A stretch of DNA of 64,000 nucleotides, taken from the sequence record NZ_CP124633.1. One strand, 5' to 3'. Positions 15,337 to 64,000 of the stretch are shown one piece after another (within the stretch, counting starts at the first letter, position 1; each line of letters starts with the position of its first letter). The notes below the pieces were generated by a model, which saw only the letters and a program-made list of their open reading frames with translations, was not told where the DNA came from and searched no databases. A program made the position numbers and the translations under genes. This stretch comes from a plasmid.

Positions 15337-15391
15337 GGCGTGACCTGCGAAAAGGATGATCCCGCCGAAGCGGGATCGTGGTGAGGGAGAA

Positions 15392-46083: not shown

Positions 46084-46110
46084 GTCGATCCCTCCCCTAA
46101 TCGTGCGAAA

Positions 46111-47844: not shown

Positions 47845-48110
47845 GCCTCCGCCACCTGAGGCGTGTTCGCCGCAGCCAGCTCTGCCTGCAGACGCTGGTT
47901 CTTGGCGAAGAGCTCGTCGACCATTCGGTTCGCTCGAGCGAGTTCTTCTTCGAGCTCGTTGCTACGCTCCAGCCGGTAGACGATCTCGCTGTTGGCCGAG
48001 CGGTGGTTATGCGCGGCTTTTTGCTTGAGTTGATCGCGGAGCCCTTGCGGCATGCGTACAACAAACTTGTCTTCTGCGTGTTTGCGGTCGATCGAAGTAA
48101 CGTTCTTCAT
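47841..48110 (-). CDS. Arc/MetJ-type ribbon-helix-helix DNA-binding protein
   Basis: FVVRMPQGLRDQLKQKAAHNHRSANSEIVYRLERS. Confidence 0.65.
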   Translation of the reverse strand: MKNVTSIDRKHAEDKFVVRMPQGLRDQLKQKAAHNHRSANSEIVYRLERSNELEEELARANRMVDELFAKNQRLQAELAAANTPQVAEA

Positions 48111-48130
48111 ATTGTTCTCCTGCAGATCGC

Positions 48131-49021: not shown

Positions 49022-50040
49022 GACGTGCTCTCCTGCTCCGCCTTGCGGCGCTTGAGCTGGTCGCGAAGCTGAGTGGGGAGGCTGCTGATCCGGAGTGTGT
49101 CGCGCTCCTCGTCGTACTCGATCCTGGAGCCCAGCAGGTGCGCCTCGAAGCTGATCGACAGGCCTTCGGCACGGCCGGTGAAGCGGCGGAACTGGTTGAG
49201 GGTGCGCTTGTCCGCCGGGATTTCCGGCGACAGGCCATAGTCCTTGTTGCGGATGTAGTCGTAGAACGCCCGCGGTTGCTGGTCGTCCATCAGTTCCGAG
49301 AGTGCGTCGAGGGTCATCGGCTCGCCGATGCGCGCCTGCGAGGTGGCGTAGTCGACCAGCGTCTCGGTCTTCTCACGGGCCTGCTGCTCGGCCATGCCCT
49401 CGCTTTCCACGAAGTCGCTGAAGGCCTTGAGCAAGGTACGGGTTTCACCGGGTGAGTCGATGCCCTCCTGGCAGCCGATGAGGTCGCGGAAATAGTCGGA
49501 GGTCTTCTTCCCGCCCTTGCCCTTGATGAACGAGATGTACTGCATCGACTGCTTGTTGTTACGCCACTCGGAGATGTTGATCCGCGCCGCCAGGTACAGC
49601 TGGCCGAAGTCGAGGTGGCGCGATGGGGTGACCTCCAGCGACTCGTTCACCGCCACGCCTTCGCTGTGGTGCAGCAGGGCGATCGCCAGGTAATCGGTCA
49701 TGCCCTGCTGGTAGTGGGCGAACAGCACGTGGCCGCCGGTGGAGAGGTTGGACTCTTCCATCAGCTTCTGCAGGTGCTCGACCGCTTCGCGGCTGAAGCT
49801 GACGAAGTCGCGGCCGCCCTCCAGGTACTCGCCGAGCCAGCCGCTGAACGGGTAGGCGCCGGACTCGCCCTGGAAGAAGCCCCAGGCCTTGTTCTTGGCG
49901 TTGTAGCTTTCGTTGAGGTCGGCCAGCAGGTTCTCGATGGCCTGGGAGTCGCCCAGCTCGGCGTCGCGCGCGTGGAGCACGGCCGGGGTGCCGTCGGGCT
50001 TCTTCTCGATCAGGTGGACGATGGCGTGTTTGATAGGCAT
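49018..50040 (-). CDS. ndpA: nucleoid-associated protein NdpA/YejK family
   Basis: [11 protein letters not shown] and C-terminal [18 protein letters not shown] align with E. coli YejK blocks. Confidence 0.85.
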
Positions 50041-50273
50041 CAGAAAGACTCCTGGTTCAGGGAACGCTGCCTGTCGGCTCGACGGAGCATGGCGCGGGCA
50101 TTGAGCTCGCCGCGTGCGTCGCTTGGCGTGGAAGAAATGAAGATCGAGGCGCAGCCGATCTTGCTGAGCTTCAAGTGGCCGCCGGCGGAGCGGTCGACGC
50201 TCCAGCCTTCGGCTTGAGCGAAGGCCACCAGCCGGCGGACGCTTTCCCGGGCGCCGCGAAGGAAACTACGCAT
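50040..50273 (-). CDS. small protein with weak YcfA/HicA-like pattern ([14 protein letters not shown]), tentative
   Basis: start MRSFLRG with GAGGAGA SD. Confidence 0.3.
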
Positions 50274-50508
50274 CCGTGGTCTCCTCACTACTGTTGAGCT
50301 GCAGCCAGGTCTCCATCTCTGCCAAGGAGCGGGGAAGGCTATCGGTGGCGGCGGCATCCAGGAGGCGTTTCACCAGCGCCTGAAGGCTGCGACGATCGTT
50401 CTGTCGGCTGCAGGCCAGGTCGTCATGCGCGGAACGCAGCATGCGGACCTCTGTGCGCAGTTGAGCGAGCTCGTCCTCAGCCGGCCGGTAAGCGGTGACG
50501 TCAGGCAT
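50266..50508 (-). CDS. hypothetical protein (80 aa)
   Basis: ORF, operon context. Confidence 0.4.
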   Translation of the reverse strand: MPDVTAYRPAEDELAQLRTEVRMLRSAHDDLACSRQNDRRSLQALVKRLLDAAATDSLPRSLAEMETWLQLNSSEETTDA

Positions 50509-50758
50509 CGTGCGCTACCTCCTTGGGATTTCTACAGGACAGTTCCCAGCGGCTCTCGATGCGCTTTTCGTGGTCGCCTGCCTGTGCCGGCATACGGGTG
50601 ATGTAGGCGTTGTCCTCGCCAAACAGCCGTTCGGCAAGGCGGGAGGCTGCCACCTTGTCGCTCCAGGTGCAGGTCGCTCTCTGCTTCTGAATGGTATTGG
50701 TCCAGAAGCCGGCGCCATCGAACTTGACGATGCACTGATAGGTCTGGGATGCCTTCAT
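50501..50758 (-). CDS. hypothetical protein (85 aa)
   Basis: ORF, overlapping starts/stops. Confidence 0.4.
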   Translation of the reverse strand: MKASQTYQCIVKFDGAGFWTNTIQKQRATCTWSDKVAASRLAERLFGEDNAYITRMPAQAGDHEKRIESRWELSCRNPKEVAHDA

Positions 50759-51282
50759 GATTCGGCCTCCTTACTGAGTGCATCACCGACCTGAACGGCC
50801 ACCAGTTCGGGCAACTCCGGCTCATGCCCGGGATAGTTGTTGGCCAACTGATGCAGGAACTCACGTGCGGCGTCCTTGCTGCCTGCAATGCGGAACACCG
50901 CGGTGAGGTGCTGGGAGCCCTGAGTGCCGCAGCAGAGGTGCGGCACCAGGCTCACTTTCAGCGAGCAACTGAACAGGTGGCGAGGGATCCATACCGACCA
51001 GAAGTAGGCTGAAAGCAGTTGCCCCGGAGCGCGCGTAGTGACCACCAGGGTTCCGGCCTGGGTGGTCGAGATTTCGATGTACCCCAGTTCCTCCAGCTCA
51101 CGAAGCTCTCGCTCCATCGAACTGGGTGCGACCGTGCTCTCGTCCCGCGAAAGGCGCGAGATCACTTGGCTGAGGGCGTCCAGCTCGATGGGGTTGACCC
51201 CAACGTGATTGGCATGAACCACCGCCGAGTCGGTGAACGCGGCCGAGGCGTGGATACTCGGAAAGCGGGCTTCAGTGTTCAT
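50755..51282 (-). CDS. hypothetical ICE protein (175 aa)
   Basis: start MNTEARFPSIH with GGAGG SD. Confidence 0.45.
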   Translation of the reverse strand: MNTEARFPSIHASAAFTDSAVVHANHVGVNPIELDALSQVISRLSRDESTVAPSSMERELRELEELGYIEISTTQAGTLVVTTRAPGQLLSAYFWSVWIPRHLFSCSLKVSLVPHLCCGTQGSQHLTAVFRIAGSKDAAREFLHQLANNYPGHEPELPELVAVQVGDALSKEAES

Positions 51283-51457
51283 CAAAGACAGCCTCCAACT
51301 GATGGACGTCGTAGCTCCCGCAGCAGGGGCAGACCAACACCTCGGCTTCTCCTTCTGGGGTGTTCTCGGCGGGAAGAATCTGGCGCACCAGGTGGTATGG
51401 CTGGTGCTGACCACAATTCATGCACTGGTGGGTGACCAGGTGCTGGGAAGTGTTCAT
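51272..51457 (-). CDS. zinc-ribbon small protein (CMNCG...CPCCG), 61 aa
   Basis: start MNTSQHLV with AAGGAG SD. Confidence 0.45.
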   Translation of the reverse strand: MNTSQHLVTHQCMNCGQHQPYHLVRQILPAENTPEGEAEVLVCPCCGSYDVHQLEAVFDEH

Positions 51458-51633
51458 GCATGGGCTCCTTGCCGGCTTGGGCCAGCAACTGGCAGCGGAA
51501 GATGAGATGAAAAATGAGGTTGCAGGACCGGTAGCGCTGAAGGCGTGACGGTCGCTGCTAGAAGGAGCCGGACACATCCGGTGGTAAGGTTGGCGTCGCC
51601 AAACAAACCCACCCAGACCACAGGAGGTCCGGC

Positions 51634-52080
51634 ATGACGAACGAATACCGCTTTGGATACGACGAGATGCTTATCCAGATCCAGGCATGCGTTCCTGACT
51701 CACAAAACGGGGACGGATTGGCTATGACGATGGCCAGAGCCCAATGGATAAGCCAAGTCTTTGTGCTGTGTACCCTTGGTAACTCACTGGCACGTGACAA
51801 AGGCTGGAGGCTATGGGGCATGGATGCCATTGAGTATGCGCTCATGCGTCGCTACTCCTGGCCACTGGAAACCATTCGGGAGATGCCAATTCGGGATAGG
51901 TGGCTAGCACTGCATGAAGAACTGGCGGATTTGCAATGGGATGAAGAGGCTCAGCAGGTATGGCTAGCGAAGATCGAACCAGTGCTGCCAGGCGCACCGG
52001 GGACGGACTACGACGTCTGGCGTTCGGATGCGCCAGGATTTCAATTACCCCAAGCTCCTGGCTATCTAGTGGTCCGGTAA
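51634..52080 (+). CDS. hypothetical protein (148 aa), low-GC plus-strand island inside a minus-strand operon
   Basis: AGGAGG SD 6 nt upstream; AT-rich codon third positions unlike neighbours. Confidence 0.5.
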   Translation: MTNEYRFGYDEMLIQIQACVPDSQNGDGLAMTMARAQWISQVFVLCTLGNSLARDKGWRLWGMDAIEYALMRRYSWPLETIREMPIRDRWLALHEELADLQWDEEAQQVWLAKIEPVLPGAPGTDYDVWRSDAPGFQLPQAPGYLVVR

Positions 52081-52462
52081 CGAATGCTTCGGGTCTCGAG
52101 CGCTTATCGGGCCAAATCTGTTCGGGGTCGATCCTGACCACCGTGGAAAAGCGATAGCCGTGCTCCTGCCAGTGCAAGACTGCCCCGCACCGGTGACTAA
52201 TCAATCCCTCCTGCTCGAGCCGCTGAGCCACCCAGCTTGGGCGTAGCCCTCCGTATGGTATGTCCTCACGGCTGTTAAGAACGTACTCGATGACACCGTG
52301 GATGAGGGCAGCGCTGGGAACAAGTAGGCAGGCATCCAATAGCCAGGCATTGGCGGCGGACCCGTCATACACTCGTCCGTGGTGGCAGAAGTTCTGCAAG
52401 GCTTGTATCCATTCGGCGCTCGCTATCGAAAGGAGATTGTTAGCGGGCTGCTGGTCACGCAT
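51842..52462 (-). CDS. hypothetical protein; 3' ~240 nt overlap antisense with 51634..52080, true stop uncertain
   Basis: start MRDQQPANNLL with AAGGAG SD (same ccggcaaggag 11-mer as before 51457). Confidence 0.4.
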   Translation of the reverse strand: MRDQQPANNLLSIASAEWIQALQNFCHHGRVYDGSAANAWLLDACLLVPSAALIHGVIEYVLNSREDIPYGGLRPSWVAQRLEQEGLISHRCGAVLHWQEHGYRFSTVVRIDPEQIWPDKRSRPEAFVTGPLDSQELGVIEILAHPNARRRSPSPVRLAALVRSSLAIPAEPLHPIANPPVLHAVLATYPELASPEWFPVARSSDA

Positions 52463-52518
52463 GACTAGACTCCTTGCCGGCTCCCGCCGGCGAGAGATCG
52501 GAAGTTCAATGAAGGGGC

Positions 52519-53862
52519 TCATGCAAGAGCTCCCTGCCAAGTTGGTGCAAGGTCGGCGAAGCGGGTCTGGTTGGCGATGAAGGCGGCGCGGACGGTGCCG
52601 ATCGGGCCGTTGCGGTACTTGCCGATGATGATTTCGGCGATGCCCTTGGCCTCGGTGTTGGGGTGGTAGACCTCGTCGCGGTACACGAACATGATCACGT
52701 CCGCGTCCTGCTCGATTGCGCCGCTCTCACGCAGGTCTGCGTTGTTCGGTCGCTTGTTCGGCCGGTTCTCCAGGCTGCGATTGAGCTGGGACAGGGCCAC
52801 GACGGGGCAATCCATCTCCTTGGCCAGTGCTTTCAGCGAGCGGGAGATCTCCGAGATCTCGGTGGCTCGGTTTTCCAGGCCTGGGCAGCGCATCAGCTGC
52901 AGGTAGTCGACCAGGATCAGTACGGGGTGGCCGTACTTCCTGGCTGCACGGCGAACCTTGGCGCGCAGCTCTGTCGGCGTCAGGTTGCCCTGGTCGTTGA
53001 TGACCAGTCGGCTGCCATAGTCGTTTATGCGCTGGATCGCGACGGTCAGCCTGGGCCAATCCTCCTCTTGCAGTTGGCCCTTCATCAGCTTGCCAAGGTC
53101 AAGGTGGCCGAGCAGGGCAGCAAGCCTGAACAGCAGCTGCTCTGCTGGCATTTCCATGCTGTAAACCTGGACAGACTTCTGTTGGTCGCTCTGCAGCGCG
53201 GCGTCGATCAAGTTGAGGGCAAACGACGTTTTGCCCATCGAGGGACGGGCACCGACGATGATGAGATCCGACTTCTGTAGTCCGCCGGAGAGCTCGTCGA
53301 GATCCTTCAGGCCTGTCGGGACCCCCGTTACCGTCACGTTGTTGTTGAAGCGGTAATCGATGGTGTCGACGATCTTCGCGAGGCCCTTGTTGATATCGAC
53401 AAAGTCGGACTTGTGCTGATCTTGGCCGAGGGCGAACAGCTTCTGCTCGATCTCCTCCTGAACCTCACAGGGATTCGCCTGGTGGTTCGAGGCGGTTCTG
53501 GTGCAGTGGTGCCCGAGAGACATCAACTGCCGCAGGTGCGCCCGATCGCGAACGATCTGCGCGTAAGCCTCGATATTGGCCACGGAGGGCGTGTTGTCAG
53601 CGAGCTGGCCGAGGTAGGCCAGCCCACCGGCTTCTGGAAGGTCTTCGATCGCTTCCGACACTGTCACGACGTCAAACGGGGCGTCCTTCGCGGCCAACTC
53701 GCTGATGGCGGTGAAGATCAGCCGATGTTCATGCCGGAAGAAGTCCTCCTTCTGCAGGTGATCGCCGACAATGTCCCATGCCGCGTTGTCCAGCATCAGA
53801 CCGCCGAGTACCCCTTGCTCCGCCTCGACGGAGTGCGGCGGCGTGAGTTCCAGAACACTCAC
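52519..53862 (-). CDS. dnaB: replicative DNA helicase DnaB
   Basis: N-domain HSVEAEQGVLGGLMLD, Walker A GARPSMGKTS, RecA-like core. Confidence 0.9.
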   Translation of the reverse strand: MSVLELTPPHSVEAEQGVLGGLMLDNAAWDIVGDHLQKEDFFRHEHRLIFTAISELAAKDAPFDVVTVSEAIEDLPEAGGLAYLGQLADNTPSVANIEAYAQIVRDRAHLRQLMSLGHHCTRTASNHQANPCEVQEEIEQKLFALGQDQHKSDFVDINKGLAKIVDTIDYRFNNNVTVTGVPTGLKDLDELSGGLQKSDLIIVGARPSMGKTSFALNLIDAALQSDQQKSVQVYSMEMPAEQLLFRLAALLGHLDLGKLMKGQLQEEDWPRLTVAIQRINDYGSRLVINDQGNLTPTELRAKVRRAARKYGHPVLILVDYLQLMRCPGLENRATEISEISRSLKALAKEMDCPVVALSQLNRSLENRPNKRPNNADLRESGAIEQDADVIMFVYRDEVYHPNTEAKGIAEIIIGKYRNGPIGTVRAAFIANQTRFADLAPTWQGALA

Positions 53863-54077
53863 TTCGAGTCCTCCCGGCCGATCTGCATGAACGTGCTTCC
53901 GCCCGGGGCGCCGATGATCTCTAGCGCTTTCACCTCCACCTTGGCGGACTCGATGATCACCGAACTCACATGAGCCACCGCTTTCGCGCGTTCGATATCC
54001 AGAGGCTTCTCTTCGTCAAGCAGGCCTTCGATGGTGGCAAAGAGGTGATTACGCAGATCCTCAATCTTGTTTTTCAT
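53859..54077 (-). CDS. hypothetical small protein (72 aa)
   Basis: ORF coupled to dnaB. Confidence 0.4.
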   Translation of the reverse strand: MKNKIEDLRNHLFATIEGLLDEEKPLDIERAKAVAHVSSVIIESAKVEVKALEIIGAPGGSTFMQIGREDSK

Positions 54078-54788
54078 GCTCGACCTCCTGAATGGTGCGC
54101 TTGAGCTTGCTGATGACGCGGATTGCGCTCTTCAGCTCAGGTGGATAGCGATGGATGGAGTTGCGGCGCATGCGTTCGGCCCGGGTGATGAGCTCCAGGT
54201 TGTCGATGACGACGTTCTGCTTGTTGTTGTCCTTGAAGCAGACGCAATGGCCGGTTGGGATGGGGCCGAAGTGTTCTTCCCAGAGCAGGATGTGCATGCC
54301 CTTCCAGTCCCGGGGGGATAACCGGTATCCGAGATCTTTCGTTGCAGGTAGCCATCAGCGCTGACCCGTGTACTGCCGACTGGGAGCCATGTGTGGGGCT
54401 TTTGCCCCTTCTTGAACTGCGTTTCCGACGAGCGTCCTCGCGCGAGAAGCCCCTTCATGCCGCAGTTCCATGGCGTATGCCCCTTCTTGAACTGCGTTGC
54501 ATTGCCTTCGATTTGAAGCTTCCGGCCGCAGGCCTGCAGAATCTGCTTGGCGAGCTCTGGGCTTTTTTTCAGTCCTAAACGGTGGGCTTTGGCGTAGATC
54601 TGCTGGACCGTTTTGTTCAACCTGGCTGCTAGGACCTCGTTCGGCATATCCGGATACAGGCGCAACAGCACCAGTTCCTGTTCGGCAGTCCAGATTTCGC
54701 GGATGCAGCGCTCCTCTCGGTTGCTGAATTTGCTGCGGGCACGCACCAGGGCCTCGTAGGCGATGGTCGAGAGAGCAGAGCGAGTCAT
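54061..54788 (-). CDS. phage-type HNH endonuclease, frame broken by 1-nt deletion in C6/G6 run at 54312-54317
   Basis: ...WLPVGSTRVSADGYLQRKISDTGYP then +1 frame RDWKGMHILLWEEHFGPIPTGHCVCFKDNNKQNVVIDNLELITRAE. Confidence 0.65.
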
Positions 54789-55486
54789 CGGGAACCTCCC
54801 TGCTCGAGCGCGCCCTGAACTCGCCGGCTGACGCCGCGGTGCAGGCGAGTGTTTTTGCCGTGCTCCCAGCCTGCGTGCAGCGAAGCCTGGTCATAGGCCA
54901 GGGGCTTCGTCGGCGCTGCCGGCTCCAGGAGTTTCAGCTCCGGATGGTGTAGTTCGAGGTAGGCCTTGATGGCTGCTTGAGTCGACTCGTCCGGCCTGCC
55001 GGCAAAGTCACGTACCAGCGAACGCACTGCGAGAAGCCAGCCTTCGACGAAGAGCTTGCTGCGACGGCGCTTGGTCGACAGCTTGCAGCGCTTCTGTTGA
55101 GCGACATGAGCCGAGCGCGCCGCCACCAGTTGGTGGTGGAGCGTAGAGTAGGCGTGAGCGGCTAGCTCAGGGCCGATCCCTCGGCCCATGAACTTGAACG
55201 TCCAGCCCGCTGGCATCGCGTATGCCGCCAGGTAGTCGCAGCCGAAGGAACTGGCGCAGATCCCGGCCAGTTCATGCAGCCATGGGGCAGGAGAGCGCCT
55301 GGTTCGAGTGGGAACGCACGCGGTCTCCACCGTGTGGGCCGAGATCTCCGCATCGCTGAGGTCGAACTGGCGCTTCAGGATCGCGGCCTGGCGCAATGCG
55401 GTTTCCGCTTCATTCGGCGTGGCCCCCTTGGCATTCGCAAGGGCCATCAGCTTCTCGACCTTGGCAAGGACTTTTTGCTTGTCCAT
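54785..55486 (-). CDS. DUF2786-like protein
   Basis: MDKQKVLAKVEKLMALANAKGATPNEAETALRQAAILKRQ. Confidence 0.55.
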   Translation of the reverse strand: MDKQKVLAKVEKLMALANAKGATPNEAETALRQAAILKRQFDLSDAEISAHTVETACVPTRTRRSPAPWLHELAGICASSFGCDYLAAYAMPAGWTFKFMGRGIGPELAAHAYSTLHHQLVAARSAHVAQQKRCKLSTKRRRSKLFVEGWLLAVRSLVRDFAGRPDESTQAAIKAYLELHHPELKLLEPAAPTKPLAYDQASLHAGWEHGKNTRLHRGVSRRVQGALEQGGSR

Positions 55487-56172
55487 TACGCGCCCCCCTT
55501 GCAGCAGGTTGAGCCCTGCTCGGTGGCGGAGCGGTCCAGGCGCTCGATCTCGGCTAGCACCAGGGCGCCGGCGCGTACCAGGTTCTCGCGCGCCGACTTA
55601 GGCTTCCACCACTCTTCGTCCCAGGGCCAGAACAGTGCAGAGCCATTCCGAATGCCGCCCGGCCAGTCGGTGCCGATGCCGCCGGCATGGAGTGCGTAGC
55701 AGCCGGCTGCCTGGGCGATCTGGCCAGCGCTAGCGTCGTCGTTGCTGGTATCGAAGCCTTCGACGGTGATCTGGCGCCGGCGCTCGGCCTGTACATCGAG
55801 CCAGGCCTGCGGAACAGGGGAGAGGTTTGAAGTTGGGTAAATTCGGTCTGCGACCTGCCGTACCCGGTCGACAATATCCAGGGCTGCTACGTTGCCCAGT
55901 GCGACCTCCAGGGCGGCGAGCAGGTTGGCCATCAAGAACTGCTCACGCTCGTCCGCGTGGCTTTTTGCGCTTGGGCGCCTGTTCCAGTCGACCTGTGCTG
56001 AATACCTCGCTGTTACCGGGTCTGGCTCGCAGTAGGACGGCCCGATGTGAACCTGGCAGTCCTGGCATTCAATGGCACAGTTCCAGGCATCGGTGTCGAG
56101 CAGCTCGGGTTCCAGCATTCGAATGTTCGTGCTGCTGCAGAGCGGGCAGGGCTTGAGCTTGGGGTCACTCAT
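55486..56172 (-). CDS. Lar-family-like zinc-ribbon protein (restriction alleviation-type N-terminus) with C-terminal domain
   Basis: MSDPKLKPCPLCSSTNIRM...CQDCQVHIGP. Confidence 0.5.
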   Translation of the reverse strand: MSDPKLKPCPLCSSTNIRMLEPELLDTDAWNCAIECQDCQVHIGPSYCEPDPVTARYSAQVDWNRRPSAKSHADEREQFLMANLLAALEVALGNVAALDIVDRVRQVADRIYPTSNLSPVPQAWLDVQAERRRQITVEGFDTSNDDASAGQIAQAAGCYALHAGGIGTDWPGGIRNGSALFWPWDEEWWKPKSARENLVRAGALVLAEIERLDRSATEQGSTCCKGGA

Positions 56173-56999
56173 GGCCTGCCTCCCTGCCCGTCGTCGGTGC
56201 TGGGCTTAGCTTGGGAGGAGCCGGCGGCGAGCAGGTCGGCCAGCTCGTTTTCGGTGTCCCAATCGATCTGCTGAAACACATCCTTTATCTCGTCGAGTGC
56301 CGAGCGGCATTTGTTCCAGTTCGCGTACACCTTGTCTTCGTCGTAGATGTTCCGGCCCCGGTACGCGTCGACCTGCTCAGGATCGAGCTGCGCCTTGATG
56401 GCGGCGAAGTGTTCGAGGCGGACCAGGCGGTAGCCATCAGGCACGCTGTGCTGAGCCTTGGCGGGCGGGGCTGAGCCTGCGAGAACTTCACGCACCTTCT
56501 CGATGCCATGCATCACCGTGGTCGGCCATGAGCCATGGTCGGCAGCGTTGACCACTACCCGCAGGACGTGCTCCAGCTCCGCGACCCTGGCCTGGGCGAC
56601 GTCGCGCTGATTCAAGGCCTTGGCACAAGCCTCGCTGAGCAGGCGCTCATGCTGTTCTGCTGCCGCATCGAGACCGATTGGACTCAGGTGCTCTCCGAGC
56701 GGTCGCACGTACTGACACACCGGGCCGTTATCGGTATCGTGGATCGACAGCACGAACCAACCGGCGCCTTCGGGCCGCGTTGGGATCCACTCGCTGTATC
56801 GTTGGTCCGAACGGGCAGAGTCGTAGAGGCGAGGCGCATCCGACTCCATGAAGACGTTCTGCAACTCCAGTCCAAGCCGGCGCAGAGTTTCCTGCGCCTC
56901 GCTGGAAGAGCAGTTGTCGGCCAGGTCCGGATAGTTCGGATGGGTCCAGAAGCCGAACTGATCGCGTTCGACCAGGTGGGCTTGAATCATAGGCTTCAT
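56169..56999 (-). CDS. hypothetical protein (276 aa)
   Basis: start MKPMIQAH with GAGGGGGG SD. Confidence 0.45.
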   Translation of the reverse strand: MKPMIQAHLVERDQFGFWTHPNYPDLADNCSSSEAQETLRRLGLELQNVFMESDAPRLYDSARSDQRYSEWIPTRPEGAGWFVLSIHDTDNGPVCQYVRPLGEHLSPIGLDAAAEQHERLLSEACAKALNQRDVAQARVAELEHVLRVVVNAADHGSWPTTVMHGIEKVREVLAGSAPPAKAQHSVPDGYRLVRLEHFAAIKAQLDPEQVDAYRGRNIYDEDKVYANWNKCRSALDEIKDVFQQIDWDTENELADLLAAGSSQAKPSTDDGQGGRP

Positions 57000-57492
57000 G
57001 CCAGCCCCCCTCGCTCATGCCAAGCACTGCACTTGCCTCTGCGGCCAGTTGCTGGCCTTCCGGGCTAGGCGAGCTGCCGACGAAGAGCATCAGCCGCTCG
57101 ATGACCTTCACGGTGTCCTGGGAGGGTTGGGCGAACTCGGCCAGGTGATCGATGGCAGTCGCGATATTCCAGATAGCCCTGTTCATGTCCCGCTGGATCA
57201 TGTGGATCGAGCTGGCATTGGCCGCGATGGCCAGTTGCGACTTCGTCTGCAACAGTAGGTCGTGGGCGATTTGGAGCAGGGCGTTCTGCAGGGGCTGTCC
57301 ACAGGCACGCTGCTGAGCGCGAACCGGAGCGACAAGGCCCTGCAGCATCGCAGCACCTTCAGCCTCGACCAGCAGATTGTCGGAAGCACCGGCGGCAGCG
57401 CCTGCTTTGGCCATGTAGCCTTGCACGTAGGCGTCGAACTGGGTCTCGGCGATCAGGCTCAGGATGAGGTTGTTGCGGTTCTGGAGGTTCAT
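56996..57492 (-). CDS. hypothetical protein; current frame reads through G6 run (57005-57010) to 56728, with G7 it would stop at 56996 and couple to downstream gene
   Basis: protein-like sequence up to ...AVLGMSEGG then junk. Confidence 0.4.
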
Positions 57493-58226
57493 ATGAGACC
57501 CTCCGGAGCCGATTGCAGAGCGTCTGTCCAGAGCCGAAGGGTTTCCTGCTCCTCGCTGGTCAGAGCGATCTGTGCGGTGCAGTCAGCGACCTTCTGTTTG
57601 ATGACGCGCAGGCGCTCCTCGACTTCACTGCCATCGTCATAGGCGATTTCGTTAATCAGATGACTAATGAAGTCACATCGCAGGCTCCCCACCTGACTAG
57701 CGAAATACTCGGCTTCACTGCGCCACCCGATGAGCTGCTTGGGACGCTCCAGCCAGCGTTTGAGTTTTGAGTGGAGCTGGTGCGTGGAGTACAGAGGATC
57801 GAACACCTTGGCCCGGTTGTAGATCAACGCGATCTGCAGGATTTCCAGCCGCTCTTCGAGCGTATTTCCCGGAAGCGGGTAGTTCGAGGCGACCAGTTGC
57901 TTGGCCAGGCGCCCACGCAGCTCACGCCGTTTCTTGGCTTGTTTCTCGTCGCGATCACGCTTTTCTTTCGCATGCTCAACCTGCTTGTTCACCGAGTCGA
58001 GCAGGCGCGCAGCGTCTTGTAGGAGCTGTTTTTGTTCGAAGCTCAAGTAGCAACCCAGCTTCCCGAACAGGTCGGTACCGCCACCAGTCAGCTTGCGTAT
58101 TTCTCGCGCAGCGCCGGTCAATTTGGCCTGCTGGCTCCGAAGGTCGGCGGCGCTGCCGAACTTGTTCAGTTGCAGCACAAGTTCCGCGTCGACGTCGCGG
58201 GCTTGGGTGATAGGAGTCTTCGCCAT
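57489..58226 (-). CDS. hypothetical coiled-coil protein (245 aa)
   Basis: start MAKTPITQARD; between parA and downstream genes. Confidence 0.45.
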   Translation of the reverse strand: MAKTPITQARDVDAELVLQLNKFGSAADLRSQQAKLTGAAREIRKLTGGGTDLFGKLGCYLSFEQKQLLQDAARLLDSVNKQVEHAKEKRDRDEKQAKKRRELRGRLAKQLVASNYPLPGNTLEERLEILQIALIYNRAKVFDPLYSTHQLHSKLKRWLERPKQLIGWRSEAEYFASQVGSLRCDFISHLINEIAYDDGSEVEERLRVIKQKVADCTAQIALTSEEQETLRLWTDALQSAPEGLI

Positions 58227-58227
58227 G

Positions 58228-59093
58228 TCAGCGCCCTCCCTTGACCAGTGCTGCAACCGCCTCCGGCGTCAGCGCCAGGAAGCGGTCAGTCCACTCGGGA
58301 AAGACCTCGATGGCCAGGTTGCGGATGATTTCCAGCGCGGGCGCGGATGTGCGATTCGAGGGTTGCCGCGTTTCGAGGCGGTGCGCTGGTAGCCCGCGCG
58401 ATGCTGCGTTGCGAAACACGACGGCATCCGGGACAGTCGTTTCGAGCACAGAAATGTCCTGATGCTCATCGAAGATGGCACGCACATTCTCGTGAATCGC
58501 CCGGGAGTCATTGGTCTGGTCCAGGCAGTTGATGACGATCTGTACATTGGGAATCCGCATGCCGAGGCGCTCGTAGGGACGCAGTCCATCGAGCATTTGC
58601 ATGGTGCCGCGGTTGAACTCGCGGGCAGTGAGCATGTTGGGCTGTAGGGGGAAACAACCAGATCCGATGCGAGCACGACCATTTCGAGTAGGGCGGAGCG
58701 CGCACCTTGGGTGTCGATCAACACCAGGTCGTAGCCCTGTTTCAAGGACGGCATGAGGTTTGCCAGCCGGAGCCGGCCATCGGGCGCCTGGAGCAGTAGG
58801 TTGTTGAGCTGGTTGTTCTGGTCGTTGGAAATCACGACGTCCAGGTTGGGGATAATCGTCCTGGAGATGATCCTCGCTGGGTCAGTTATGTTGGCGGCGA
58901 GCAGGTCGTAGATGCCGCCCTGGGCGACTTCAGGAAGCTCGTAGTACGAGGATAGGGAGGGCTGGACGGGGTCCAGATCGATGAGGAGGGTTCGTATGCC
59001 TGCGTCGGCGCAAAATGCACCGAGGTTGGCGGCGGTGGTGGATTTCCCTACACCACCCTTGGTGGATACAATTGAAGTCGCTTTCGCACTCAT
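58228..59093 (-). CDS. parA: ParA/Soj partition ATPase, frame broken near 58636-58650 (G5 run)
   Basis: N-half STKGGVGKST Walker A in ORF 58269..59093, C-half MLTAREFNRGTMQMLDGL in ORF 58228..58635; adding one C gives DLVVSPLQPNMLTAREF. Confidence 0.8.
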
Positions 59094-59186
59094 GTCTACA
59101 GCCTCTAATGTGGGGTCATTAGAGGCTGCTAAACAGACTCGTTGTAACGGGAGTGGAAACCCTTCCTAGACGACCTTGGTCCAAAT

Positions 59187-59252
59187 GGCTTTTAACCAAT
59201 TGGTTGGCTTTTAACCAATTGGTCGTAGGTTCGAATCCTACACGACCCACCA
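59187..59252 (+). other. att core: 3' 49 nt of tRNA-Lys(UUU) (TTGGCTTTTAACCAATTGGTCGTAGGTTCGAATCCTACACGACCCACCA) preceded by a 17-19-nt tandem duplicate of the anticodon-arm segment; no 5' half of the tRNA
   Basis: read directly; anticodon loop CTTTTAA, T-arm GGTTCGAATCC, CCA end. Confidence 0.8.
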
Positions 59253-59364
59253 TTTTCGACGGGGCGAGTTGCATAGGTCTAGGAAGGGGTGTTACGCCGG
59301 TTCTTGTCTAGCAGCCGTCTGGGCCGAACATTAGGCCCGCATTGACGTGATGTCAATATGGAAT

Positions 59365-59396
59365 AGCCCGCCTATTTAGGTGGGCTTTTCTGTTTC
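59365..59396 (+). terminator. hairpin agcccgcc-tattta-ggtgggct followed by TTTTCTGTTTC
   Basis: read directly; adjacent 6-bp inverted repeat ATTGAC-gtgat-GTCAAT at 59341..59357. Confidence 0.45.
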
Positions 59397-59588
59397 TAAG
59401 GCCCTGAAGCCATGGGATTGGCCCTGAGCTGGCCGCTCATACCTATCTGTAGGCGTAGCAAAGCACCTCCGACGTAATCTGCGATTACAGAGGGTCATGC
59501 GGTGATAGCCGCGAGAATTCAGGGCTCTGCGAGTGCGCCGGCGTTGATGTGCAGAGGCCCTCGCTTATTTCAGATTTTCCCTACCGGC

Positions 59589-60890
59589 CTACCGATCGGC
59601 CAACGGGGGGCTTGCTTTCTTTCCGACAACGGTACCCCATCTAGGAGCGCAGTTGCCCTCGGTTGTCGTCAGGCTTGCCTGTCGCAACAGGTGTTGGGCC
59701 AGCAGCGCGAACAGCAAGTCCTGTTCGGAGTTGTCCGCTGGTGGGGGTACCGCGTCGGCTCTTCTTTGAGTACAGAAGGGTGGTGAGTTGTAAGCCTGAA
59801 TCTCCTGATCAGACCCCGTACTCGTCACTTCTGCTGTGGGTACCTGTGTCGACGGACTGCTTCCTCTCTGAGTTGGGCGTGGCAGCGCCGGCCTTGAATG
59901 AGCCGCCTTCTGCGGCGATCCACTGTAATCGACCTTTTGGGTCTGTGCCACGGCGCCCTGAGCTAGGCTTCGCTCGTTAAGCACTGCCCGAATCTGATCG
60001 TGATCCGTCTCGATATAGCTCATTGTTGTTTGGATGTTGGAGTGGTTGAGTAGATCCTTGGCGACATGGATATTGCGCTCATGCTGCTTCATCAAGTCGG
60101 AAGCCAGGGTGTGCCTGAATCGATGGGGCGTCATTCGTACCCCGGTCTTCTCGGTCAACTTTCTGTACATCGCCTCGACTTGGTCGGCATTCATTTCCTT
60201 GCGTGCATAGTGGCGTGAGAAACGATTCACATTGAATAGCTGGTCGTGGTGGCTCATGCTTACCTGCTCGGCTTCCTGGAGTAGCCGCCGTATATGGGGG
60301 GCTATCCCATCGGTGATGGGGACGGAAAACTCTCGGTGGGTTTTCTCTGTCTCAGCCCGGATCAGGATCATTTTTCTTTTCCAGTCCACATCGCACTTAC
60401 GAATGCACAGCAGCGCATTCAGACGGATGCCGGTTTCGTAGAATGTCTCGAATACGCACCGCCAGAACCAAACCGGAGTGATTCGTGCGCGTTCCCCCGT
60501 GCAGTGCTCGGAGCTATCTAGCACTTTCAGCCAGGAGCGAGCGCTTTGTATGGCATCGAGTGCTACTGTCTTGCTCGGCCGCTTTGGCGGCGTCACTCCG
60601 GTTTTCTTGAAAGGATTGATTTGGCTGTGGGTCAGCAGTTCGTACTCAATGGCATATCCCCAAACGGTGCGCAGGTGGCTCGAGTAAGTGTTCCAACTGC
60701 GTTTGGATAGCCCCTGCTCCAATACCTTTCGTCTCCATTCCAATACACTCCGATGAGTGATTTCCTGCACGGTGACTGTGCTGCCGAAGTGCTTCATGAG
60801 CGCTCTGGTTGCTGCTCGATAGGTCTTCTGGCTGGCCTCTCTGAGGTCGTGTGCGAAGAGATATTCCTCGGTCAATTGAAGTGGGGTCAT
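59589..60890 (-). CDS. int: tyrosine recombinase / integrase (XerC-like)
   Basis: HRFRHTLASDLM...TTMSYIETD catalytic box; C-terminal ~90 aa low-complexity tail may be artefactual. Confidence 0.85.
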   Translation of the reverse strand: MTPLQLTEEYLFAHDLREASQKTYRAATRALMKHFGSTVTVQEITHRSVLEWRRKVLEQGLSKRSWNTYSSHLRTVWGYAIEYELLTHSQINPFKKTGVTPPKRPSKTVALDAIQSARSWLKVLDSSEHCTGERARITPVWFWRCVFETFYETGIRLNALLCIRKCDVDWKRKMILIRAETEKTHREFSVPITDGIAPHIRRLLQEAEQVSMSHHDQLFNVNRFSRHYARKEMNADQVEAMYRKLTEKTGVRMTPHRFRHTLASDLMKQHERNIHVAKDLLNHSNIQTTMSYIETDHDQIRAVLNERSLAQGAVAQTQKVDYSGSPQKAAHSRPALPRPTQRGSSPSTQVPTAEVTSTGSDQEIQAYNSPPFCTQRRADAVPPPADNSEQDLLFALLAQHLLRQASLTTTEGNCAPRWGTVVGKKASPPLADR

Positions 60891-62817
60891 TCCACACCCC
60901 CTTCGGCATCGGTGATGACCGTGAGGCTTGGGTTGTCCAGAGGCTGCACAGGGAACAGCAGTTTGGGATCCTGGAGCAGGTATGCCTTGAGCTCTTTCGT
61001 CTTGCGAGGACCAGAAACCTTGATGGTCCAGATGTTCAGGTTCTTATTGGTCTTTCGGTGAAGACCCTGTTTCTCGAACGCGCGTTGCACCAGCTTCCAG
61101 CCGGTCGTCTCCTTGGCCTGGGCCAGCTTTTCGAGCTCTGGATGCTCATGGACATAACGCTTGAAGATTCCTGGTGTGACCAGCATGGCGGTCCCGTCGA
61201 CGGTATGTATCAAGGCTTTGGTGTCGTTGATGAACAGGCGACGGGCCGCGGTGCCAGCTTTCATCCAGCCAACGAATCCCTGTCCCAGATCAGTGCTTCT
61301 GCTAGGCATAAATACGTCTTCAACTGTTTCAGGAGCGCAATCTGTTGGCTCCTTGTTCCCTAGTGGCTGCTGTAGGTTCTCCTCCCCGCGAGTGTTCGTA
61401 GGAGAAGCAGCCGGTGAGTCGTGGCTAGTGTCTAGCTCTTCTGGTGGCGAATTGATATTACCAAGAAGTGCGTACAAATCGTCTGTTTCTTCTTGATCAT
61501 CAGTTGAGGGTTTCGCAATCGCCTGTATGTCGTTTGACGGTTTCGCAATGGTCGGCGCAGGCTGGCGGAGCGTCATCTTGGCTTCTGGCGCCTGTCGCTG
61601 TTCAATCGGATCGTTGGGGATTTCGCAGGTCGTTTCCGGCTTTTCAGGGGAGGCGTTGCCCTCTTCAATAACGAGTGATCCGCTGTAGGAATCAGGCCGC
61701 TCGGCAGGGTCAGCCCAGATCAAGGCTGGAGCGATCTTGAGGAGCGTGAACTTGTTTCTCCACCCAGCACCATTGTCTATCGTGGCCGTCCAGATGGCCT
61801 TGTCTTCGGCGTTCGTCTGGATGACGGCCTGGTCCTGGAGCATGTTGAAGAATGGCGCGTTGGAGGAGGGGACCCCTTCGATTCCCTGAGCCAGCAGGTA
61901 GGCTCTCAACTGATCGGCCGCGGGCTTGCTCACCAGCCAGAGTGCGTCCTGAGTCAGCCATCCATCGGACGGGCCGCTAGGTTGATTCAACTTGAACTTG
62001 TCCTTCACCAAGAAGCGAAGGCCGTCTGCCAACTGCCGCTGCAGCGACTGCTTCGGTGCAGCCAGCGCTCGATCCGGATTACCCCCAGCTCCTGCGCGAC
62101 TGAGGCCTGGTCTGCCTTCACGACAATCTCACCGAGGATCCCGGCGTGCTCGTACTGCCCTGCGAACAGATAGATCAATTGAGCCCACAGCTCTGGAAAG
62201 CGACTGAGCCAGTCGAGTGCAGTGCGCGGTAGCAGTTGGTGGATGAGTAGCGCTGAGGCTGCGCCGTGGAGTTGGTATTCGCGGGACTTCACATACTTGA
62301 AGCGGTAAGGCTGGTTGATCGGTCCGTTCCAAGGGTGCCAGGTGCTGCCGTCCTGCAACTCCACCTGCAGGTCGACGACGATCTTGCCTATGTCGTGAGC
62401 CAGGGCACCATAAGCCGCGGCAGCCGACCAGGCTTCAGCCTGGGCTGACTGTGACTCCGGCGCTGCGCCGATCGGGAGCAAATAGGTCTGTCGTACCTTC
62501 AGTGCGTAGGCCACGATCTCCAAGCCGTGATCGATCATCCCGCCTGGATGGGCATGGTGATGGTTCTCCGAAGCAGGGAGTTGCTGGACCAGCTCGGCGT
62601 AGTTGGCCAGTGGTCGGCGGTAGATCTCCTCGAATTGCTGCTTGGACAGCGAGGCGCGCTGCCAGATGTTCTCCAGTAGCTGCCGCCGACGAGGCGTGCC
62701 GAGCAGCTCCATACTGCTCAGAGGAGGGAGGAATCCCCCGGGGGCAGCTTTGGTTAGTGGGCTGAGGGAAGGCTTTCTGGAGATCCAGGAAAGGAGTTGA
62801 AACATGGGAGGCTCCAT
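60887..62817 (-). CDS. traI: MobH-family relaxase TraI (HD-domain, PFGI-1 class), frame broken at G5 run 62081-62085
   Basis: HD motif HHAHPGGMIDHGLE in ORF 62005..62817; C-domain ORF 60887..62032; with G6 reads ...VAQELGGNPDRALAAPKQSLQRQLADGLRFLVKD. Confidence 0.7.
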
Positions 62818-63134
62818 GACGATTCATGGAGCGGGCTTTTCCGCCAGATCAGGGGTTGGCAACAACGATAAAACAACGGTAGCGGGGAAGGGTATTTTGT
62901 TGGCAATATGCCATCTTGGTCTTGTGCTTTACCTGGGAGGAACTGGGCCAGGCTCAACCATGGGGCACCTGCTGGTGAATGTTCACCCGTAGCCTTTTCG
63001 TGTTCGCCGGCGCGAACGCAGCCATTTCTGCCTTCCGGCAGGCCCTTTCGGGTAGGGCTTTTACCCTTGTGGACCATTCCCTTCGCCCTTCAAGCCCATT
63101 TCCCCTTTGGGCCATTTGCTCCTGCTACAGCTGC

Positions 63135-63266
63135 TCACCGATGGGGCAGGTATTGATCCAGATCCATGGAGTCGTGAAGCACGCGAACCACCTCGAGCAC
63201 CTGGTCTGTCGCCACTCGGTAGAAGACGAAGTGCCTGGGCCGAACAACCTTACCGACGTTGGGCAT
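63135..63266 (-). pseudogene. C-terminal remnant of a ParE/RelE-family toxin
   Basis: MPNVGKVVRPRHFVFYRVATDQVLEVVRVLHDSMDLDQYLPHR; no intact N-terminus in frame. Confidence 0.3.
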
Positions 63267-63416
63267 GAGCGGCAGTAAATGAGGTGGATGCTGCGCAAGC
63301 TTGCGCCTACTTCTTCACGGTCGAGGCCACTCGATGTTCTGGGCACGGGTTGCCAATTCAGCTGTTTCGGCGTATAGATGATGGCAGTATGCCCTTTTCT
63401 GGGGGAGAGGAGGTTG

Positions 63417-63761
63417 ATGATGAAGGCACACGCCAACAAAGGTTTTGCCGCCCGGGTTGGTTATGCTCTGGGCACGCTTGTGCGCTTCTGCCTACATGAT
63501 CGTCGGCCTGTCGCGCGCTGGGCCAAGCGAGTCAGCCTGTTGGTGGTGCTGCTAGTTGTGCTTGTCCACAACTTTACCTGGCTGGCCAGCGTCTCACTGT
63601 CGTTGCTGTGTATGGGGCTGGTAGGCTGGGCTTTAGTAAGAAGTGATATGAAGTTAATGTCGGCCGAAAATAAGATAAGCTTATTTGATCGCGAGAATGG
63701 ATATCGTGATGGCCTATCTGGCTATGGTCATTATATAAATGGGATGCGTGTTGATGACTGA
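63417..63761 (+). CDS. membrane protein (114 aa, two TM helices), AT-rich 3' end
   Basis: GGAGAGGAGG SD before ATGATG at 63417. Confidence 0.5.
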   Translation: MMKAHANKGFAARVGYALGTLVRFCLHDRRPVARWAKRVSLLVVLLVVLVHNFTWLASVSLSLLCMGLVGWALVRSDMKLMSAENKISLFDRENGYRDGLSGYGHYINGMRVDD

Positions 63762-63795
63762 GGTTTGGCCTGGTAGAACCAGGCCAATTTCAACA

Positions 63796-63999
63796 TTAGT
63801 TACCTTTCTGGATACCGGTAGACACTGTCTTAATACCTGACTCAGCGAGGTTTCCCGCTCTTTCTCCCGCTTTGCCAACAGCGTCTGTACCAGCTTGAAG
63901 TCCACCTAGGACCGATCCTACGCTTACTCCTGCCCAGCCTACAGCTGTTATCCATAGCATGGGTAAAATAACGAACATCGCCCCCATCACAAAGTTCAA
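63796..63999 (-). CDS. hydrophobic hypothetical protein, start at or beyond window end
   Basis: ORF abuts window end. Confidence 0.3.
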   Translation of the reverse strand: MNFVMGAMFVILPMLWITAVGWAGVSVGSVLGGLQAGTDAVGKAGERAGNLAESGIKTVSTGIQKGN

Positions 64000-64000
64000 T

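What the first reader, a model, noticed from the sequence alone, without database searches (positions are those of the whole stretch)
58228..60890. parA, tRNA-Lys 3' fragment and int are contiguous: a circular (attP-type) junction, with a duplication inside att
In integrated PAPI-1/pKLC102-type islands, soj/parA and int lie at opposite ends. Here they flank a 49-nt 3' tRNA-Lys segment that lacks the 5' half of the tRNA. So the window is from the episomal or plasmid form or from a tandem junction. Inside the att core, the anticodon-arm segment GGCTTTTAACCAATTGG is tandemly duplicated. That duplication could be a scar of imprecise recombination, or could alter the crossover site.
Basis: partly seen in the sequence, partly recalled or inferred. 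Interest (0 to 1): 0.6.

Follow-up and report, generated by a model that had tools for sequence, protein, structure and literature searches.

The report
Circular-form attP junction of a PAPI-1-type ICE
This is the well-known joint formed when a Pseudomonas aeruginosa PAPI-1/pKLC102-type mobile island closes into a circle, and the only unusual detail is a 19-base repeat in the attachment site that no related sequence shares and that sits in a visibly error-prone assembly.

Summary
A ParA/Soj gene (58228-59093, minus strand), a 3' fragment of tRNA-Lys (59205-59252) and a tyrosine-recombinase gene (59589-60890, minus strand) are contiguous. No tRNA 5' half exists anywhere in the window.

The same joint occurs in the circular plasmids pUM505, pY89 and a B-3509 plasmid. 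Window 17399-64000 differs from pUM505 by one substitution, eight single-base homopolymer deletions, a repeat-number change and the duplication. The identical integrase sits beside intact tRNA-Lys genes in at least 10 chromosomes. An otherwise identical ~82.5 kb island is integrated in chromosome CP124626.1. So this is an ordinary attP-type junction of the PAPI-1/pKLC102 family. A head-to-tail tandem copy cannot be excluded.

The duplication is real in the sequence. It is an exact 19-bp unit (TGGCTTTTAACCAATTGGT x2, 59186-59223), not 17 nt. It is absent from all 36 related att sites examined and from three public collections.

parA, the relaxase and three other genes are frameshifted at G/C runs, and these run lengths differ between copies of the same element. 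That is the signature of a low-accuracy consensus. I judge the duplication a joining artefact at the att node (about 55%) or a private mutation (about 45%). Low interest.

The parts
58228..59093 (-). parA/soj gene of the island, first gene of the parA-end operon. Here it is frameshifted by a missing base in the G-run at 58647-58651 (coding strand C5, against C6 in pUM505).
   Evidence: ORFs of 274 aa and 135 aa. Pfam AAA_31/CbiA/ParA on the N-terminal part. The intact 288-aa ParA is annotated in pUM505. The single-base gap is shown. Related assemblies also show C5, C7 and C8 at this tract.
59099..59128 (.). Perfect inverted repeat with 12-bp arms (CAGCCTCTAATG / CATTAGAGGCTG), 5 nt upstream of the parA start codon. 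It overlaps the likely ribosome-binding site. It is a candidate operator or translational hairpin for parA.
   Evidence: I2. The columns are invariant in pUM505, B-3509, pY89 and pKLC102. The function is inferred.
59160..59171 (.). Left conserved box CCCTTCCTAGAC. It forms an inverted pair with 59277-59288 and is a candidate arm-type or accessory-protein site of attP.
   Evidence: I1. 'AAACCCTTCCTAGA' is invariant in five attP sequences and present in all attR sites displayed. Protein binding is inferred.
59186..59204 (+). Extra copy of the 19-bp unit TGGCTTTTAACCAATTGGT (the anticodon arm of tRNA-Lys, with CTTTTAA at 59189-59195). It is absent from every relative examined.
   Evidence: Absence is shown.
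59205..59252 (+). The 48-nt att core, i.e. the 3' part of tRNA-Lys(UUU) from the anticodon stem to the encoded CCA. The presumed 7-bp crossover (overlap) region is the anticodon loop CTTTTAA at 59208-59214.
   Evidence: Identical to the chromosomal tRNA-Lys 3' part in attL loci. The 45-nt core is present once in each of 36 related loci. Arm sequences diverge immediately left of CTTTTAA (TGG/TGT/TAT), which places strand exchange at or to the right of that point. That placement is an inference.
59277..59288 (.). Right conserved box GTCTAGGAAGGG, the inverted partner of 59160-59171. The arms are 105 nt apart here. From the 19-bp insertion I compute 86 nt in relatives.
   Evidence: I1. Present in all attL loci.
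59365..59396 (+). Plus-strand intrinsic terminator (AGCCCGCCTATTTAGGTGGGCT + TTTCTGTTTC). It most likely terminates the tRNA-Lys transcript once integration rebuilds the gene at the int end.
   Evidence: The weak Rfam hits here are driven by this terminator hairpin. The native tRNA terminator stays with attR. The role is inferred.
59589..60890 (-). int, a 433-aa XerC/XerD-like tyrosine recombinase of the island.
   Evidence: Pfam PF00589 and Phage_int_SAM_5. NCBIfam Xer-like models match, all below their cut-offs. The exact protein is found next to tRNA-Lys in at least 10 chromosomes.
60887..62817 (-). mobH/traI relaxase gene, overlapping int by 4 nt. It is split into two ORFs by a missing C in a C-run near 62081.
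   Evidence: ORFs 60887-62032 and 62005-62817. Pfam TraI_2 and TraI_2_C are split across them. The gene is intact (639 aa) in pUM505 and most chromosomes. The gap is listed.

Best explanation
The region is the attP junction of a PAPI-1/pKLC102-family integrative conjugative element (the pUM505 lineage, about 82.5 kb) of Pseudomonas aeruginosa, captured in its closed-circle (episomal or plasmid) form.

**How it works.** The island's XerC/D-like integrase recombines the 48-nt core, which is the 3' part of tRNA-Lys from anticodon stem to CCA, with either of two chromosomal tRNA-Lys genes. Strand exchange is most probably in the 7-nt anticodon loop CTTTTAA, flanked by CCAAWTGG-type inverted core sites.

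- **Integration** rebuilds an intact tRNA-Lys next to int, where the island supplies a terminator. It leaves the 48-nt fragment next to parA at the far end.
- **Excision** brings mobH-int and parA back together on one strand, as seen here. According to the literature, this is the configuration in which soj/parA is driven from a promoter at the int end.

**The duplication and the frameshifts.** The 19-bp duplication, and the frameshifts in parA and mobH, are most likely not biology of the family. The window has the signature of a low-accuracy long-read consensus. The duplication starts exactly at the first base where the attP arm and the tRNA gene become identical. That is where an assembly graph would end the island edge, so an untrimmed 19-nt overlap at circularisation would give exactly this sequence.

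**What is shown and what is inferred.** Shown: the anatomy, the family membership, the arm identities and the singleton status of the duplication. Inferred: the crossover position, the role of the conserved boxes and the artefact mechanism.
For: **Junction and family**
- The junction arrangement is identical to three circular plasmid records.
- The window is collinear with pUM505 across the junction and across that record's origin. It shows 0 substitutions over 17399-43000 and 1 over 44000-64000.
- The same Int lies beside tRNA-Lys at both known attB loci. parA ends lie beside chromosomal genes.
- The window's two arms equal the attR and attL arms of the CP124626.1 island, whose att sites are single-copy.
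- There is no tRNA and no 5' half in the window.
- A 16.6 x 57-bp repeat array is present. It is oriV-like by my recollection of pKLC102, which fits a replicating episome.

**Literature**
- ICEPae1161 is flanked by 48-bp repeats, has parA at one end and traI-int at the other, and its circular form was shown by PCR (PMC6945700).
- soj is expressed from a promoter joined to it on circularisation (PMC2654960 citing Qiu 2006; PMC2704930).
- pKLC102 coexists as episome and integrated copy, at about 30 episomal copies per chromosome (PMC10413270).

**Low-accuracy consensus**
- Eight single-base deletions relative to pUM505 all fall in G/C runs.
- By my mapping of them onto the pUM505 annotation, six fall in annotated genes, including parA, mobH, a TcpQ-domain gene and an HNH gene.
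- The run lengths differ among the window, L019 and L029 with no substitutions between them.

**Duplication is a singleton**
-.
Against: - No reads were available and the source contig was not identified. Circularity itself is therefore not shown, and a head-to-tail tandem copy gives the same 64 kb.
- A perfect 19-bp tandem copy is not a typical long-read consensus error. The proposed circularisation-overlap artefact also requires that the contig was rotated or wrapped afterwards, which I cannot check.
- The shared parA and mobH frameshifts in the window and CP124626.1 could be real mutations of that lineage rather than systematic errors.
Confidence: 0.7

Rival explanations
1. Tandem junction. 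Two copies of the same island, or two related islands, sit head to tail at one chromosomal tRNA-Lys. The internal joint between them looks exactly like attP.
For: Neighbouring islands at these sites do occur. In L031 the att fragment next to parA is followed by a diverged copy of the int-side arm sequence, with an ExoU (patatin) gene nearby. L040 shows the same neighbouring chromosomal genes in its gene table. In LR134308.1 (L017) the parA-att is followed by int-side arm sequence and then IS elements. The 64-kb window is shorter than the ~82.5 kb island, so it cannot show a second copy either way.
Against: All full-length matches to the junction in the plasmid collection are circular records. 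The family is documented to replicate as an episome. None of the roughly 30 chromosomal places retrieved for Int or for the genes next to parA showed parA next to its own int.
Confidence: 0.18
2. The 19-bp duplication is a genuine private mutation of attP, arising by replication error or template switching at the ACCAATTGGT palindrome. It has little or no selected function.
For: The two copies are 100% identical, which is unlike noisy consensus. The unit ends exactly at the end of a 10-bp palindrome. The duplicated allele folds into a 12-bp hairpin as single-stranded DNA (-14.9 against -10.7 kcal/mol), so the sequence is structurally prone to slippage.
Against: There is no microhomology at the duplication boundaries (direct reading). 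It is absent from every relative, including the attL and attR of the otherwise identical CP124626.1 island and the Logan contig L019. The assembly is demonstrably unreliable at small indels.
Confidence: 0.3
3. The duplication is a product of aberrant integrase action. It creates two tandem core sites that change where the island crosses over.
For: It lies in the roughly 20 bp of the element where Int acts, among about 46 kb compared with pUM505. That placement is unlikely by chance. The duplicated allele contains two complete CCAAWTGG-CTTTTAA-CCAATTGG units.
Against: Tyrosine recombination is conservative and cuts 6-8 bp apart (established knowledge). The duplicated segment runs from 3 nt left to 9 nt right of the presumed overlap, so its ends do not match cleavage positions. 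Unequal exchange would need a second CTTTTAA-like overlap 19 bp away, and the single-copy site has none. No other instance exists in 36 att sites or three collections. The location is explained equally well by att being an assembly-graph node.
Confidence: 0.08

Closest known systems
pUM505 (NC_016138.1), 123-kb conjugative plasmid of P. aeruginosa carrying a PAPI-1-like backbone
   Same: Window 17399-64000 is collinear with it and differs by 1 substitution. The order parA - att - int - mobH, the Int protein, the left arm (CCAAATGGC) and the right arm are all the same.
   Different: pUM505 has a single att core, an intact parA and an intact mobH. It carries about 54 kb of extra cargo (chr, Tn3-family and IS elements) where window 4792-17398 resembles pKLC102 instead. 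There is one repeat unit (52 nt) of difference in the 57-bp array.
PAPI-1 (strain PA14), pKLC102 (clone C) and ICEPae1161: tRNA-Lys-specific ICEs with a XerC/D-like integrase
   Same: The att is the 3' 45-48 nt of tRNA-Lys. The parA/soj operon sits at one end and traI(mobH)-int at the other. They integrate at PA4541.1 or PA0976.1. They have a circular or episomal form in which soj is joined to the int end.
   Different: pKLC102 and pY89 have TGT instead of TGG left of the anticodon loop, giving 45 nt of identity rather than 48. None has a duplicated anticodon arm.
Integrated copy of the same island in chromosome CP124626.1 (GCA_029961285.1)
   Same: It shows zero substitutions against the window in 4.8 kb (L010), 21.5 kb (L027) and 9.2 kb (L029). 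It shares the parA C5 and the mobH frameshift.
   Different: There the island is integrated as clpB - tRNA-Lys - int ... parA - att - PA4541-type gene. Both att sites are single-copy. Several homopolymer lengths differ.
ICEclc Pcirc and Tn916-type circularisation-dependent promoters
   Same: Closing the circle puts a promoter from one end in front of a gene at the other end. This is reported for PAPI-1 soj. Here mobH, int and parA all read the same way across att.
   Different: No promoter was located here by the sigma-70 scan. The direction of control is toward parA, not toward int as in ICEclc.

Membership tests
PAPI-1/pKLC102-type ICE (tRNA-Lys-specific, MOBH/MPF_G) | XerC/XerD-like tyrosine recombinase next to the attachment site | tested here: met
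   PF00589 at 4e-24, and Xer-like NCBIfam matches below their cut-offs. The exact protein sits beside tRNA-Lys in at least 10 chromosomes.
PAPI-1/pKLC102-type ICE (tRNA-Lys-specific, MOBH/MPF_G) | att core equal to the 3' 45-48 nt of tRNA-Lys | tested here: met
   59205-59252 is identical to the tRNA-Lys 3' part in attL loci. The same 45-mer is present in 36 related loci.
PAPI-1/pKLC102-type ICE (tRNA-Lys-specific, MOBH/MPF_G) | parA/soj operon at one end and relaxase-int operon at the other end when integrated | tested here: met
   Integrated relatives show this. It is described for ICEPae1161 in PMC6945700.
PAPI-1/pKLC102-type ICE (tRNA-Lys-specific, MOBH/MPF_G) | MOBH relaxase, MPF_G transfer genes and type IVb pilus cluster | tested here: met
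   TraI_2 and TraI_2_C. The window is collinear at 99.6-99.7% identity with the pUM505 stretch that carries the pil cluster, and pUM505 is typed MOBH/MPF_G. The relaxase ORF is frameshifted in this window.
PAPI-1/pKLC102-type ICE (tRNA-Lys-specific, MOBH/MPF_G) | Excision, circular form and transfer shown experimentally | not testable with these tools
   This needs PCR across attP and attB, and mating assays, on the source strain.
attP (junction of the closed circle) as opposed to attL or attR | Left arm is the island's parA-side arm and right arm is the same island's int-side arm, with no chromosomal flank | tested here: met
   Arms are identical to attR (L029) and attL (L010) of the same island in CP124626.1.
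attP (junction of the closed circle) as opposed to attL or attR | The molecule is a free circle rather than a tandem array in a chromosome | not testable with these tools
   The window (64 kb) is shorter than the island (~82.5 kb). The source contig was not found.
Functional tRNA-Lys gene | Complete cloverleaf with acceptor 5' strand and D arm | tested here: not met
   ARAGORN reports 0 genes. The 5' half is absent at up to 3 mismatches. The Rfam hit lacks a D arm, with 6 nt in place of 15 and mismatched acceptor pairs.
Genuine sequence variant (not an assembly artefact) | Supported by independent reads or independent assemblies | tested here: inconclusive
   No second instance was found in 47 loci or three collections. 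The window shows homopolymer errors. The reads themselves are not available.

The most novel reading that the evidence does not exclude
The 19-bp duplication is real and gives this island two adjacent crossover sites.

- Exchange at the int-proximal copy would rebuild a normal tRNA-Lys and carry the duplication into attR.
- Exchange at the parA-proximal copy would insert 19 nt into the host tRNA-Lys anticodon arm and inactivate that gene copy.
- In either case one set of conserved flanking boxes moves 19 bp (almost two helical turns) away from the core.

That could lower integration efficiency and bias the element toward life as a plasmid.
Probability: 0.1. Interest if true: 0.4.

Novelty: already known. 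Interest (0 to 1): 0.15.

Why it matters
It matters little beyond annotation. The window can be labelled as the circular-form junction of a pUM505/PAPI-1-type island, and its 'parA' and 'mobH' should be flagged as probably mis-called at homopolymers.

If the duplication were confirmed by accurate reads, it would be a natural attP allele with two tandem core sites. Such an allele could be used to map where this family's integrase exchanges strands, and to test how spacing between core and flanking boxes affects integration versus episomal maintenance. Neither has been worked out in detail for PAPI-1-type elements, as far as the papers I could read show.

Tried and rejected
1. **Finding the source contig by exact-protein look-ups.**
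   - The frameshifted 274-aa ParA product and the two small ORFs that span the duplication are not on record.
   - The 135-aa ParA C-terminal fragment, a 761-aa helicase, and the 245-aa and 276-aa genes next to parA returned only integrated chromosomal copies or short contigs.
   - One contig of 50-200 kb carrying the helicase was counted but not displayed.
2. **Searching for the duplication junction.** Exact searches in genome and metagenome contigs, and a looser pattern (two anticodon arms within 30 nt) in genome, metagenome and viral contigs, found nothing relevant. The single metagenome hit (L048) is an unrelated tandem array of ~30-nt units with no tRNA.
3. **'The window is pUM505 itself': rejected.** Window 1-17398 does not match the corresponding pUM505 stretch and resembles pKLC102.
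4. **'The tRNA hit above Rfam's gathering score is a real tRNA': rejected**.
5. **'Slippage between short direct repeats made the duplication': rejected.** The only internal repeat (TGG...TGG) is 15 nt apart, not 19, and there is no microhomology at the boundaries.
6. **Primary papers not held.** Qiu 2006 and Klockgether 2004 were not in the library, so their content is cited second-hand.
Full report
**What is in the sequence**

Between 58228 and 60890 the minus strand carries a ParA-family gene (58228-59093) and a 433-aa tyrosine recombinase gene (59589-60890), followed by a MobH/TraI_2 relaxase gene (60887-62817). Between parA and int lies the 3' part of tRNA-Lys(UUU), running from the anticodon arm to the encoded CCA at 59252. 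ARAGORN finds no tRNA in the whole window. The tRNA's 5' half has no match at up to three mismatches.

The anticodon arm is present twice, as an exact 19-bp tandem repeat: TGGCTTTTAACCAATTGGT at 59186-59204 and 59205-59223. Chance expectation for the core 15-mer is 0.03 copies per window. An Rfam tRNA match at 31.3 bits (59187-59249) arises only because the first copy is forced into the acceptor and D-arm positions. It is not a tRNA.

**What it belongs to**

A 3-kb query across the junction matches three circular P. aeruginosa plasmid records end to end: pUM505, pY89 and an unnamed plasmid of strain B-3509. All three share the gene order parA - att - int - mobH. Over 58000-61000 the window differs from pUM505 in only two ways: the 19-bp insertion and one missing G in a G-run inside parA.

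Over the larger collinear stretch, window 17399-64000 against pUM505 97226 through the record origin to 20442, I found:

| Difference from pUM505 | Count or size |
|---|---|
| Substitutions | 1 |
| Single-base deletions in G/C runs | 8 |
| Change in a 57-bp repeat array | 52 nt, about one unit |
| Tandem duplication in att | 19 bp |

Window 1-17398 instead resembles pKLC102 (97%). It lacks the roughly 54 kb of cargo that pUM505 carries there.

**The integrated state**

The exact Int protein occurs in many assemblies. The ten places shown are all chromosomal, with int next to an intact tRNA-Lys beside clpB or beside queC/tolB. These are the two known target loci of this family.

The gene next to parA, and a second nearby gene, were found in chromosomes with parA followed by a 45-48-nt tRNA fragment. 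After the fragment come chromosomal genes, IS elements, or in one locus (L031) a diverged int-side arm near an ExoU gene.

One chromosome, CP124626.1, carries an integrated island of about 82.5 kb (my calculation from the record coordinates of int and the parA-adjacent gene). It shows no substitutions against the window in any of the three stretches retrieved. Its attL (tRNA-Lys plus int-side arm) and attR (parA-side arm plus 48-nt fragment) are both single-copy.

The window's junction is therefore exactly what recombination between that attL and attR would produce, plus 19 extra bases.

The literature available to me agrees:
- ICEPae1161 is flanked by 48-bp repeats, with parA at one end and traI-int at the other. 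Its circle was detected by PCR (PMC6945700).
- PAPI-1 excises, circularises and re-integrates at either tRNA-Lys. Its soj is required for maintenance and is expressed from the circular form through a promoter joined to it on circularisation (PMC2704930 and PMC2654960 citing Qiu et al. 2006).
- pKLC102 coexists as episome and integrated copy (PMC10413270).

**Anatomy of the site and the likely mechanism**

Comparing arms across the family, the parA-side arm varies right up to the base before CTTTTAA: TGG in the pUM505 lineage, TGT in pKLC102, pY89 and many attR sites, and TAT in L025. Everything from CTTTTAA to CCA is invariant. Strand exchange must therefore occur at or to the right of that point.

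The 7-nt anticodon loop, flanked by CCAAATGG and CCAATTGG, has the form of a core site with a 7-bp overlap. That placement is my inference from general tyrosine-recombinase behaviour.

Other features around the core:
- **Flanking boxes.** A conserved 12-bp inverted pair, CCCTTCCTAGAC (59160-59171) and GTCTAGGAAGGG (59277-59288), flanks the core. These are candidate arm or accessory sites.
- **Terminator.** A plus-strand terminator at 59365-59396 sits where it would terminate the rebuilt tRNA-Lys at attL. The native terminator stays at attR.
- **Shared transcription direction.** mobH, int and parA all read the same way across att, and no minus-strand terminator was detected between int and parA. 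This is compatible with the reported circular-form expression of soj.

**Is the duplication real biology?**

*Arguments against:*
- It is absent from all 47 loci fetched. Of these, 36 hold a single copy of the core, including the otherwise identical island in CP124626.1 and the Logan contig L019, which reads straight through a single copy.
- It is absent from the genome, metagenome and viral collections. The one loose-pattern hit is an unrelated repeat array.
- The window is unreliable at small indels. All eight single-base differences from pUM505 are deletions in G/C runs. Mapping them onto the pUM505 annotation, six fall in annotated genes and shift the frame, including parA, the relaxase, a TcpQ-domain pilus gene and an HNH gene. 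The lengths of such runs differ among the window, L019 and L029 with no substitutions among them.
- An element with an inactivated relaxase, partition gene and pilus gene, yet essentially no substitutions relative to an intact relative, is better explained by consensus error.
- The ends of the duplicated segment lie 3 nt left and 9 nt right of the presumed overlap, so they do not match recombinase cut sites. There is also no microhomology at the boundaries.
- The left end coincides exactly with the first base at which the attP arm and the tRNA gene become identical. That is where an assembly graph containing both integrated and excised forms would branch. An island edge with a 19-nt untrimmed overlap, closed into a circle and then rotated or wrapped, would give precisely this sequence.

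*Arguments for:*
- The copies are perfect.
- The unit ends at the end of a 10-bp palindrome.
- The duplicated allele can form a 12-bp hairpin, so a replication error is plausible.

I put artefact at about 55% and a real private mutation at about 45%. Within the latter, an integrase-made scar is about 8%.

**Episome or tandem?**

Neither the window nor my look-ups can settle this. The window is shorter than the island and the source contig was not found.

The circle is favoured for three reasons. Every full-length match in the plasmid collection is a circular record. The family is known to replicate episomally, and the window carries a 57-bp x 16.6 array that is oriV-like by my recollection of pKLC102. 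And none of the roughly 30 chromosomal places retrieved shows parA next to its own int.

Adjacent islands do exist at these loci (L031, L040, L017), so I keep about 18% for a tandem junction.

**Verdict**

The attP reading is supported and already well known for this family. The duplication is an unsupported singleton in an error-prone sequence, and there is no evidence that it is a recombination scar. Interest is low unless accurate reads confirm it.

Noticed in passing
window 58647-58651 (parA); loci L017, L019-L026: The poly-C tract in parA (coding strand GTTGTTTCCCCC(C)T) has different lengths in independent assemblies. It is C5 in the window, L019, L024, L025 and L029. It is C6 (in frame) in pUM505. 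It is C7 in L017, L021, L023 and L026, and C8 in L020 and L022. The 135-aa C-terminal fragment that results is on record in 39 blocks, against 1838 blocks for the neighbouring gene. This is probably a sequencing-error hot spot, but real slipped-strand switching of soj is not excluded.
   Followed up: partly
window 19583, 19901, 30415, 51563, 54311, 57004, 58646, 62081: Relative to pUM505 the window has eight single-base deletions, all in G/C homopolymers. By my mapping onto the pUM505 annotation, six fall inside annotated genes. The closest relatives (CP124626.1 and a Logan contig) carry a partly different set. This points to a low-accuracy, long-read-type consensus for the source assembly.
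   Followed up: yes
window 43007-43953: A tandem array of 16.6 copies of a 57-bp unit at 84% identity. It resembles the iteron-type oriV I recall from pKLC102. It holds 52 nt (about one unit) more than pUM505 at 43493-43544.
   Followed up: partly
window 59160-59171 and 59277-59288: A perfect 12-bp inverted pair, CCCTTCCTAGAC / GTCTAGGAAGGG, flanks the att core. It is conserved in pKLC102, pY89, pUM505 and in all attR and attL sites displayed. These boxes are candidate binding sites for Int arms or an accessory protein, and I found no description of them in the papers I could read.
   Followed up: partly
window 59099-59128: A perfect hairpin with 12-bp arms lies 5 nt upstream of the parA start codon and covers the likely ribosome-binding site. 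It is invariant in five elements. It may be an operator or a translational control element for parA.
   Followed up: no
window 59365-59396: A strong plus-strand terminator lies just inside the int-side arm. It resembles the native tRNA-Lys terminator that stays at attR, so the island seems to bring its own terminator for the rebuilt tRNA gene.
   Followed up: partly
window 1-17398: This stretch matches pKLC102 (97%) rather than the corresponding part of pUM505. pUM505 has about 54 kb of cargo (chr genes, a Tn3-family transposon, IS elements, further integrases) between the points matching window 4792 and 17399. The element in the window is therefore a mosaic, cargo-poor relative.
   Followed up: partly
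L002 (CP117975.1) and L035 (CP117974.1): Strain B-3509 has an integrated copy of this island lineage in its chromosome. It also has a separate 14.4-kb 'circular plasmid' record that carries the parA-att-int-mobH junction. This may be an assembly by-product of reads from the excised form, and it shows that attP joints of this family can surface as odd extra contigs.
   Followed up: no
L017 (LR134308.1), L031, L040: Some chromosomes show parA-att followed by int-side arm sequence and then IS elements (L017). In L031 the att is followed by a diverged int-side arm with an ExoU gene nearby, and L040 has the same neighbouring chromosomal genes. These are remnants or neighbours of other islands at the tRNA-Lys loci.
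   Followed up: no
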